This document shows positions 1 to 800 of a DNA stretch of 800 nt, in pieces (the stretch's first letter is position 1; the number at the start of each line of letters is the position of its first letter). Location of the stretch: assembly GCF_003334255.1 (NCBI RefSeq), contig NZ_QOWU01000185.1. One strand, 5' to 3'. The notes beneath the pieces were generated by a model. That model was given only the letters and a program-made list of their open reading frames with translations. It ran no database searches and was not told the DNA's origin. Source of the DNA: Escherichia coli. GTDB taxonomy: Bacteria; Pseudomonadota; Gammaproteobacteria; Enterobacterales; Enterobacteriaceae. Position numbers and translations under genes: made by a program.

Positions 1-800
1 CAGGTCTCGCCCAGCGTGGTGTTCACAAAGGTTTTCAGGCCGTTGGGATCTTTCAGTGCATCCAGCCAGTCATAGACTATCTGTACCCAGGTGGTGAACG
101 GACTGTACGCTGTCCAGATATGGAACGTGATGGAGCGCGGCGGCGGAATTTCATTATCCGCGGCGCTGAAAAACGTCAGACCGTCACGGGTCCACATCCC
201 CGTGTTTTCACAGATCCACCGCCCGTTGCTCTGGTCAAGCTCAGACTGATGGATCACGCAGCCATGATGTTCACAGAGGTAGAAAACGCTTTCGGGGCTG
301 TCCTTCTCCCATTTAAGGCCAAAAGGCGTGGATTCATCGCCAAATTTCAGATACTGCTCCTCCCCACAGTGTGGGCAGGGCACATAAAAACGCATGAAAT
401 GCGCCGACTCGTTGGCCGCTTTTTCGATCTGGCAGGTGCCTTTGATTTTAGGCGTCGAGCCGCGAATGGATTTGGGCCATACAGAGCCCTCAATACGTTT
501 ATCCCCAAGCAGGGTTGGCGAACCCTCTTTTTCGACATCCGGTTCGAACGAGGAAAGTTCGTCATAGCAGACCACGTCCACGGATTTTTCACGGTAGTTT
601 TTGGCGGCAGCGCCGCCCAGGCACCAGAAACCCACACCCGATGAAAAGCGTTTCAGCGTGAGGGTATTGTCACGATGTTTACGCCCCAGCCATGGAAAAA
701 GGTCTTTCAGACATGGCACATCCCGAATCGTCGCCTCCACGTGAGACTTCATAAAATCTTCAGCGGCAGAATCCGTGGGCTGAAAAAGCAGACTGTTTCG
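1..800 (-). CDS. terL: Phage terminase large subunit, lambda gpA-like (internal fragment, partial at both ends; roughly residues 99-365 of a ~640-aa protein)
   Basis: Reverse-complement frame starting at window position 800 is open for 266 codons plus 2 trailing bases, with no stop. The translation contains FMKSHVEATIRD, KHRDNTLTLKRF, GFWCLGG, AKNYREKSVDVVCYDEL, EGSPTLLGDKRIEGSVWPKSIRGSTPK, GTCQIE, HFMRFYVPCPHCGEEQYLKFGD, TPFGLKW, SVFYLCEH, TFHIWTAYSPFTTWVQIV and KTFVNTTLGETW, all of which match blocks of lambda gpA as I recall it, in the same order and spacing. Recognition is from memory of the lambda gpA sequence, not a database search. Confidence 0.95.

What the first reader, a model, noticed from the sequence alone, without database searches (positions are those of the whole stretch)
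1..800. Lambdoid phage/prophage DNA-packaging gene: intact-looking terL fragment
The window is fully occupied by a gpA-like terminase large subunit reading frame on the minus strand. It has no stop codons or frameshifts over 266 codons and is clearly homologous to lambda gpA but carries many substitutions, so it is a distinct lambdoid phage rather than lambda itself. This marks the locus as part of a phage or prophage morphogenesis module. An uninterrupted frame suggests the gene has not decayed, although a cryptic prophage cannot be excluded from 800 bp.
Basis: partly seen in the sequence, partly recalled or inferred. Interest (0 to 1): 0.4.

Follow-up and report, generated by a model that had tools for sequence, protein, structure and literature searches.

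The report
Phage 21-like terminase large subunit fragment
The window is an ordinary, well-understood piece of a DNA-packaging motor gene (terminase large subunit) from a lambda-family prophage that is very common in E. coli chromosomes, so it marks a prophage and reveals nothing new.

Summary
The minus strand (nt 800 to 3) is open for all 266 codons, with a chance probability of about 1e-5.

- **Identity:** the fragment is codons 99-364 of a 642-codon gpA-family terminase large subunit (TerL). It hits Pfam GpA_ATPase at 1.6e-40 and PHROG_15 at 6e-153.
- **Closest relatives:** it is 94% identical in protein to phage 21 gp2, 72% to lambda gpA and 98.5% to phage PhiR12_1.
- **Selection:** dN/dS against phage 21 is 0.077.
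- **Source and context:** the DNA is 100% identical to many E. coli chromosomes. In ATCC 25922 it lies in a ~49.5 kb lambdoid prophage between potB and potC, with int/xis, cosN, terS and full head and tail modules.
13 of 5,426 genomes carry the same sequence inside a TerL(1-378)::portal fusion left by a 2,460-bp deletion. The breakpoint is 14 codons beyond the window edge, so 800 nt cannot prove the gene is intact.

This is already known biology and of low interest. The one point worth noting is an invariant four-cysteine motif in the family-specific beta-rich insertion, which the papers I searched do not describe.

The parts
3..800 (-). Internal fragment (codons 99-364 of 642) of the terminase large subunit (TerL, gpA/gp2 family) gene. 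Neither the start nor the stop codon is in the window.
   Evidence: Open frame, 0 stops. 100% identical to the annotated CDS WP_001309424.1. Pfam and PHROG hits. dN/dS 0.077 vs phage 21.
216..794 (-). Stretch matching Pfam GpA_ATPase (PF05876), model positions 59-247 of 247. This is the packaging ATPase core downstream of Walker A.
558..581 (-). Walker B motif plus catalytic glutamate: VDVVCYD-E179 (lambda VDVAGYD-E179).
   Evidence: Sequence match. D80/E81 in window numbering are >=90% conserved in the 15-sequence family alignment. E179 is shown to be the catalytic carboxylate of lambda TerL in PMC6379665.
453..464 (-). R-G-S-T (residues 211-214), the conserved 'STP' segment. I take this to be the coupling (C) motif of terminase ATPases.
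   Evidence: Sequence. T116 is nearly invariant and P117 invariant in alignment A1. The C-motif assignment rests on my own knowledge of the lambda G212S packaging mutant and was not verified in a paper here.
138..380 (-). Family-specific beta-rich insertion in the ATPase domain (equivalent to lambda residues 239-319).
   Evidence: PMC10810279 describes this insertion relative to HK97 TerL. In the model it consists of beta strands at window aa 134-226. Only about 130-163 of the 266 residues align to other TerL structures.
366..377 (-). C240-P-H-C243, the first cysteine pair of a four-cysteine motif.
   Evidence: C142, P143 and C145 (window numbering) are invariant in 15 gpA-family sequences down to 24% identity.
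258..275 (-). C274-E-H-H-G-C279, the second cysteine pair of the four-cysteine motif.
   Evidence: C176 is invariant. Every one of the 15 sequences has a further Cys 2-5 residues downstream: CxxC in most, Cx4C in lambda, 21, this window and one Pseudomonas phage.
3..116 (-). Lid subdomain of the ATPase (W327-D342-T364), including D342 at nt 69-71. Pfam assigns this stretch to the start of its GpA_nuclease model.
   Evidence: Lid boundaries come from Table 1 of PMC6379665. Two helices are predicted at window aa 238-262. Pfam GpA_nuclease positions 3-48 match window aa 225-266.
120..644 (+). 174-codon antisense ORF. Not a gene, but a by-product of codon usage on the sense strand.
   Evidence: It lies in the frame that is codon-for-codon complementary to terL. 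A stop arises there only opposite the sense codons TTA, CTA or TCA, and the sense frame has just one (TCA, nt 642-644), which is exactly where the ORF ends.

Best explanation
The window is an internal 798-nt piece (codons 99-364) of the gene for the large subunit of a cos-type terminase. It belongs to a lambdoid, phage 21-like temperate phage that is resident as a prophage in an E. coli chromosome.

The encoded fragment is most of the N-terminal ASCE packaging ATPase. It includes the strands after Walker A, Walker B with the catalytic Glu179, the GST segment, a family-specific beta-rich insertion carrying four invariant cysteines, and the helical lid subdomain with Asp342. Walker A (K76-T83), the N-terminal TerS-binding segment, the C-terminal cos-cutting nuclease and the portal-binding tail all lie outside the window.

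The mechanism is inferred from lambda and phage 21 biochemistry. TerL bound to TerS recognises cosB and nicks cosN to make 12-nt cohesive ends. It then docks on the portal of an empty prohead and hydrolyses ATP at the site partly encoded here to pump one genome into the head. The gene is most probably intact in the source genome.
For: Shown directly:
- Open frame with P about 1e-5 by chance.
- Pfam GpA_ATPase 1.6e-40 and the start of GpA_nuclease 2.5e-9. PHROG_15 'terminase large subunit' 6.1e-153.
- 94.0% aa identity to phage 21 gp2, 72.2% to lambda gpA and 98.5% to PhiR12_1 TerL.
- dN/dS 0.077 with 65 of 86 differences at third codon positions.
- Walker B/E179, GST and lid D342 are conserved (motif definitions in PMC6379665).
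- Megablast gives 100% DNA identity to at least 30 E. coli chromosomes. 323 records are >=99% identical and 1,924 of 5,426 genomes have a match.

Context:
- In ATCC 25922 and EE72d the full gene is 642 aa and has both Pfam domains. The gene order is terS-terL-W-portal-protease-decoration-capsid-FI-tail.
- The ATCC 25922 prophage is bounded by potB/potC, has integrase and excisionase, and has the cosN 12-mer GGGCGGCGACCT 183 nt upstream of terS.
- 1,908 of 1,940 matching records retain at least 80% of the gene.
Against: The source genome of the window is unknown, so the context is inferred from genomes with identical sequence. The same 800 nt also occur in a truncated TerL::portal fusion in 13 genomes. 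BLAST coverage cannot detect point frameshifts elsewhere in the gene. The ATCC 25922 prophage contains three pseudogenes and its inducibility was not tested. No terminase activity was measured; function rests on homology. A sequence search of the PDB found no solved relative and NCBIfam gave no hit, so structural support comes from a predicted model.
Confidence: 0.95

Rival explanations
1. The window comes from a decayed prophage in which terL is truncated. The specific case is the in-frame TerL(1-378)::portal(last 37 aa) fusion created by a 2,460-bp deletion that removes the nuclease domain, gene W and most of the portal gene. The fragment would then encode a non-functional remnant.
For: FDAARGOS_448 has a 100% identical window but a 415-aa gene abutting the S49 protease gene. 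The breakpoint is mapped to gene nt 1133 / codon 378, 14 codons past the window edge. The tail hits a portal PHROG. The junction is present at 100% identity in 13 genomes.
Against: Only 13 of 5,426 genomes carry the junction, against 323 records with a >=99% identical window. 1,908 of 1,940 matching records keep at least 80% of the gene. Two of the three sampled identical-window hosts are intact, and the third was picked because its annotation differed.
Confidence: 0.05
2. The window comes from a free phage genome (virion DNA or a viral contig), not an integrated prophage. The gene and mechanism are the same, but the element is an active virus.
For: The PhiR12_1, _2, _2_star, _4 and _5 records, deposited as complete phage genomes with laboratory hosts, carry a 96% identical fragment. 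Their TerS is 100% identical and their TerL 98.6% identical to the prophage versions.
Against: No phage record exceeds 96% DNA identity, whereas many E. coli chromosomes are 100% identical. Only 7 of 3,074 matching places are on plasmids.
Confidence: 0.05
3. The 174-codon ORF on the plus strand (nt 120-644) is a real overlapping gene.
For: It is long, and the plus frame has only one stop in 266 codons.
Against: It is the exact codon-complement frame of terL, where stops require the rare sense codons TTA, CTA or TCA. Only one such codon exists. No annotation on that strand appears in any host record. No promoter-like site was found. Substitutions against phage 21 concentrate at terL third positions, which fits constraint on the minus frame only.
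Confidence: 0.01

Closest known systems
Phage 21 gp2 (terminase large subunit; OL657228.1 CDS 709-2637, M81255)
   Same: 94.0% aa and 89.2% DNA identity over the window. Residues 365-600 are 99% identical and the C-terminal 42 residues 100% identical. Length is the same (642 aa), as are all motifs, the gene order and the cosN 12-mer.
   Different: The N-terminal 60 residues (outside the window) are only 50% identical. The partner small subunit is only 31% identical to 21 gp1. The TerS-pairing and cosB specificity therefore probably differ from phage 21.
Lambda gpA (NP_040581.1)
   Same: Same family and architecture: GpA_ATPase plus GpA_nuclease. Walker B VxxYD-E179, GST212-214, the four cysteines, the lid W327/D342/T364 and the cosN sequence are all shared.
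   Different: Only 72.2% aa and 68.4% DNA identity in the window, with synonymous sites saturated. The lambda record gave no megablast match to the window.
Escherichia phage PhiR12_1 and relatives (PV340549-PV340554)
   Same: Nearest deposited phages. TerL is 98.6% identical overall, with 4 aa differences in the window. TerS is 100% identical, and terS-terL-W-portal synteny is the same.
   Different: 96.0% DNA identity, so this is not the same allele. No publication on these phages was found in the library.
HK97, P74-26, D6E, T4 gp17 and Sf6 large terminases (solved structures 6Z6D, 4ZNI, 5OE8, 2O0H, 4IDH)
   Different: 9-14% sequence identity. They lack the ~80-residue beta-rich four-cysteine insertion (about 100 residues of the model are unaligned). 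No sequence-level PDB hit.

Membership tests
gpA-family terminase large subunit (Pfam GpA_ATPase PF05876 + GpA_nuclease PF20454) | Significant match to the GpA_ATPase profile | tested here: met
   Window: i-Evalue 1.6e-40, model positions 59-247 of 247. Full-length host gene: 7.3e-56, positions 4-247.
gpA-family terminase large subunit (Pfam GpA_ATPase PF05876 + GpA_nuclease PF20454) | C-terminal GpA endonuclease domain | tested here: inconclusive
   Only model positions 3-48 of 294 fall in the window (2.5e-9). The domain is complete (1.2e-71) in the identical-window gene of ATCC 25922 but absent in the FDAARGOS_448 fusion. The source genome is unknown.
ASCE P-loop packaging ATPase | Walker B hydrophobic strand ending in Asp, followed by the catalytic Glu | tested here: met
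   VDVVCYD178-E179 at nt 558-581. Conserved in at least 90% of alignment A1. Role defined in PMC6379665.
ASCE P-loop packaging ATPase | Walker A / P-loop with the toggle arginine (lambda K76-S-A-R79-V-G-Y-S83) | not testable with these tools
   It lies 16 codons upstream of the window. It is present as KSARVGYT in the identical-window host gene, but the window itself does not contain it.
ASCE P-loop packaging ATPase | TerL ATPase three-dimensional fold | tested here: met
Lambdoid cos-packaging head module | Gene order terS-terL-W-portal-protease/scaffold-decoration-major capsid-FI | tested here: met
   Seen in ATCC 25922, EE72d and PhiR12_1. This context is inferred for the window from 100% identical hosts.
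Lambdoid cos-packaging head module | cosN cohesive-end sequence upstream of terS | tested here: met
   GGGCGGCGACCT, identical to the lambda and phage 21 12-mers, lies 183 nt upstream of terS at L001 21759-21770 minus strand. It is outside the window.
Phage 21 packaging-specificity type | 21-type N-terminal TerS-binding segment of TerL paired with 21 gp1 and 21 cosB | tested here: not met
   TerL residues 1-60 are 50% identical to 21 gp2, and TerS is 31.4% identical to gp1. The body and C-terminus are 21-type (94-100%). I therefore file it as 21-like TerL and not as a phage 21 terminase.
Integrated prophage | Integrase/excisionase and chromosomal flanks | tested here: met
   In ATCC 25922, int and xis are adjacent to potC, the tail-fibre end is adjacent to potB, and the element is about 49.5 kb. 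att repeats were not searched, and the window's own source is unknown.

The most novel reading that the evidence does not exclude
The four cysteines encoded in the window (C240/C243/C274/C279) are invariant across gpA-family terminases from proteobacterial, cyanobacterial, Wolbachia and Paenibacillus phages. They may form a structural zinc ribbon within the family-specific beta-rich insertion of the packaging ATPase. Such a metal site could be essential for motor assembly or DNA gripping in lambda-type terminases, and the lambda terminase papers I could search do not describe it.
Probability: 0.25. Interest if true: 0.35.

Novelty: already known. Interest (0 to 1): 0.08.

Why it matters
The practical value is limited. 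The fragment reliably flags a lambdoid prophage head module, and roughly a third of complete E. coli genomes carry a relative, some with up to five copies. It therefore works as a prophage marker.

The check also shows that an 800-nt open frame is not proof of gene integrity, because an identical window exists in a deletion-fusion remnant. The only aspect that could feed new work is the invariant four-cysteine motif in the ATPase insertion, which is directly testable in the lambda genetic system.

Tried and rejected
- **PDB sequence search:** no hits, so there is no solved close relative.
- **NCBIfam:** no family. PGAP's name for the gene probably comes from the Pfam models.
- **Single-sequence AlphaFold2 of the full-length protein:** pLDDT 33.7, unusable and discarded.
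- **Rfam at a permissive threshold:** only a DicF match of 20.2 bits against a gathering score of 48, E = 0.09, treated as chance.
- **Repeats:** one 12-nt two-copy direct repeat and no inverted repeats, which is nothing.
- **Promoter scan:** 0 sites. Terminator-like hairpins: 4 against 1.1 +/- 1.2 expected, all minimal 5-7 bp stems inside the coding sequence, judged not meaningful.
- **Plus-strand 174-aa ORF:** explained by codon complementarity.
- **Literature on the PhiR12 phages:** nothing found.
- **Literature on zinc or cysteines in gpA terminases:** nothing relevant. One literature query failed for lack of capacity and one was malformed.
- **Cysteine geometry:** model coordinates are not exposed to the script environment, so Cys-Cys distances could not be measured.
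- **PICI/satellite or GTA origin:** rejected, because the gene sits in a complete lambda-order head-tail module with int/xis.

Full report
**Observation**

Translating the reverse complement from window nt 800 gives 266 codons with no stop. The other five frames contain 1, 9, 9, 10 and 18 stops. With the window's composition (53.5% G+C) the per-codon stop probability is 0.042, so a 266-codon open frame has probability 1.1e-5. In 20,000 shuffles that frame was never open.

**Identity**

- The translation matches Pfam GpA_ATPase (PF05876, i-Evalue 1.6e-40, window residues 3-195, model positions 59-247 of 247) and the first 48 positions of GpA_nuclease (PF20454, 2.5e-9).
- It also matches PHROG_15 'terminase large subunit' at 6.1e-153.
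- Aligned without gaps to reference genes, the fragment is 94.0% identical to phage 21 gp2 and 72.2% identical to lambda gpA, at residues 99-364 in all three.
- At the DNA level it is 89.2% identical to phage 21 gene 2 and 68.4% to lambda A. Lambda was not found by megablast.
- The nearest deposited phages are the PhiR12 series: 96.0% DNA, 98.5% protein, 4 amino-acid differences in the window.
- Against phage 21, 65 of 86 nucleotide differences are at third codon positions and dN/dS is 0.077, the signature of a gene under purifying selection.

**Fold**

**Anatomy within the window** (full-length numbering; window residue = full-length minus 98)

- Walker B plus the catalytic glutamate: VDVVCYD-E179, nt 558-581.
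- GSPT191-194: nt 513-524.
- RGST211-214: nt 453-464.
- C240PHC243: nt 366-377.
- C274EHHGC279: nt 258-275.
- The HIWTAYSP start of the lid: nt 99-122.

Ortiz et al. (PMC6379665) show that Glu179 is the catalytic carboxylate of lambda TerL. They give Walker A as KSAR79VGYS, Walker B as VAGYD-E179, and the proposed lid subdomain as W327-D342-T364. The window therefore begins 16 codons after Walker A and ends exactly at the last lid residue, and D342 is conserved (nt 69-71).

Pfam assigns residues 323 onward to its 'nuclease' model. The lambda literature treats 327-364 as the ATPase lid and places the ATPase domain at 29-366, and the model predicts two helices there. The window therefore encodes essentially only ATPase-domain sequence and none of the catalytic nuclease. 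The C-motif label for GST rests on my own recollection of the lambda G212S mutant and was not verified here.

**Genomic context**

The 800 nt are 100% identical to at least 30 listed E. coli chromosomes. 323 records are at least 99% identical, and 1,924 of 5,426 complete genomes have a match, with up to five places per genome.

In ATCC 25922 the window is codons 99-364 of an intact 642-codon gene. It is flanked by terS upstream and by W, portal, S49 protease, decoration protein, major capsid protein, FI, head-tail joining and the complete lambda-order tail genes downstream. The element is about 49.5 kb. It lies between potB and potC, and has excisionase and integrase next to potC. The full-length protein carries both Pfam domains (GpA_ATPase 7.3e-56, GpA_nuclease 1.2e-71). 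The 12-nt cosN sequence GGGCGGCGACCT, identical to that of lambda and phage 21, lies 183 nt upstream of terS. Strain EE72d shows the same intact arrangement.

**The caveat is real**

Strain FDAARGOS_448 has a 100% identical window, but its gene is 415 codons and abuts the protease gene. Comparison with the intact locus shows TerL residues 1-378 fused in frame to the last 37 residues of the portal protein. The locus is 2,460 bp shorter than the intact one between terL and the protease gene, and lacks the nuclease domain, W and most of the portal gene. The tail hits a portal PHROG. A 300-nt probe across the junction is fully matched in 13 of 5,426 genomes.

The breakpoint is 14 codons beyond the window edge, so the window cannot tell the two states apart. 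By frequency the intact state is strongly favoured: 13 junction carriers against 323 near-identical records, and 1,908 of 1,940 records retain at least 80% of the gene.

**Mechanism**

This part is inferred from the lambda and phage 21 literature summarised in PMC4669245 and PMC6379665. The TerL-TerS holoenzyme binds cosB, nicks cosN and separates the cohesive ends. It then docks on the portal, and the N-terminal ATPase encoded largely by this window drives translocation. The Walker A arginine toggles between Glu179 and the lid acidic residue. None of this was tested for this allele.

**Other features checked**

- The 174-codon plus-strand ORF (nt 120-644) lies in the codon-complement frame. 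There a stop can arise only opposite TTA, CTA or TCA, and the sense frame has a single TCA at nt 642-644. It is an artefact.
- Rfam gives only a sub-threshold DicF match.
- There are no meaningful repeats or promoter-like sites, and only weak hairpins.

**Side observation**

In alignment A1, which spans 15 gpA-family fragments down to 24% identity from phages of Pseudomonas, Ralstonia, Alteromonas, Aeromonas, Rhodobacter, Vibrio, Wolbachia, Synechococcus, Paenibacillus, Serratia and Escherichia, C240, P241, C243 and C274 are invariant. Every sequence also has a fourth cysteine 2-5 residues after the third. In this sample they are better conserved than the Walker B acidic pair.

They lie in the beta-rich insertion (lambda 239-319) that distinguishes lambda TerL from HK97 TerL in PMC10810279, a paper that mentions neither zinc nor cysteine. 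Literature searches found no description of a zinc site in gpA terminases. The library is incomplete, however, and I could not measure the model's Cys geometry. A zinc ribbon is therefore a hypothesis only.

**Verdict**

The gene is best described as a phage 21-like (not lambda-like) TerL with a divergent N-terminus and TerS partner. This is a known gene of a known kind in a very common prophage, so interest is low.

Noticed in passing
L007 (NZ_CP023960.1) 11847-13094, minus strand; breakpoint at gene nt 1133, 14 codons beyond window nt 3: A 2,460-bp deletion creates an in-frame TerL(1-378)::portal(C-terminal 37 aa) fusion and removes the nuclease domain, W and most of the portal gene. The window sequence in these genomes is 100% identical to that in intact genes. 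The junction is present in 13 of 5,426 E. coli genomes.
   Followed up: yes
window 366-377 and 258-275 (minus strand): A four-cysteine motif (CPHC ... CEHHGC) lies inside the family-specific beta-rich insertion of the ATPase domain. Three Cys and the Pro are invariant, and a fourth Cys is always present, in 15 gpA-family sequences down to 24% identity. This may be a zinc ribbon. The lambda terminase papers I searched do not mention it.
   Followed up: partly
L001 21066-21575 (terS) and 20915-21094 (TerL residues 1-60), minus strand; outside the window: The prophage small subunit is only 34% identical to lambda Nu1 and 31% to phage 21 gp1, but 100% identical to PhiR12_1 TerS. The TerL N-terminal 60 residues are only 50-58% identical to 21 and lambda, while the rest of TerL is 89-100% 21-like. 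This looks like a mosaic joint near codon 60 and probably a third TerS/cosB specificity on a 21-type motor.
   Followed up: partly
L001 21759-21770, minus strand: The cosN 12-mer GGGCGGCGACCT, identical to the lambda and phage 21 cohesive ends, lies 183 nt upstream of terS despite the divergent TerS.
   Followed up: partly
window 120-644, plus strand: A 174-codon antisense ORF. The plus frame has a single stop because the sense frame contains only one of the codons TTA, CTA or TCA. It is a codon-usage artefact.
   Followed up: yes
window 3-128 (minus strand): The Pfam GpA_nuclease model begins at residue 323. It therefore overlaps what the lambda literature defines as the ATPase lid subdomain (327-364) and the ATPase domain (29-366). 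The 'nuclease' hit in this window is really lid sequence.
   Followed up: partly
window 589-618, plus strand: A sub-threshold Rfam match to DicF RNA (20.2 bits against a gathering score of 48, E = 0.09). Judged to be chance.
   Followed up: no
L001, L004, L005 (NZ_CP009072.1, about 3951140-4000680): The ATCC 25922 prophage is inserted between potB and potC. It carries cargo and accessory genes (Lom/Ail, IraM, HokD, RelBE, DicB, a SAM methyltransferase) and three pseudogenes (DUF977 internal stop, DUF6645 frameshift, partial YdfR). Whether it is inducible is unknown.
   Followed up: no
E. coli genome search results: Relatives of this terL occur in about 35% of complete E. coli genomes, with up to five copies per genome. 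7-8 of the matching places are on plasmids, which might be phage-plasmids or misassigned replicons.
   Followed up: no
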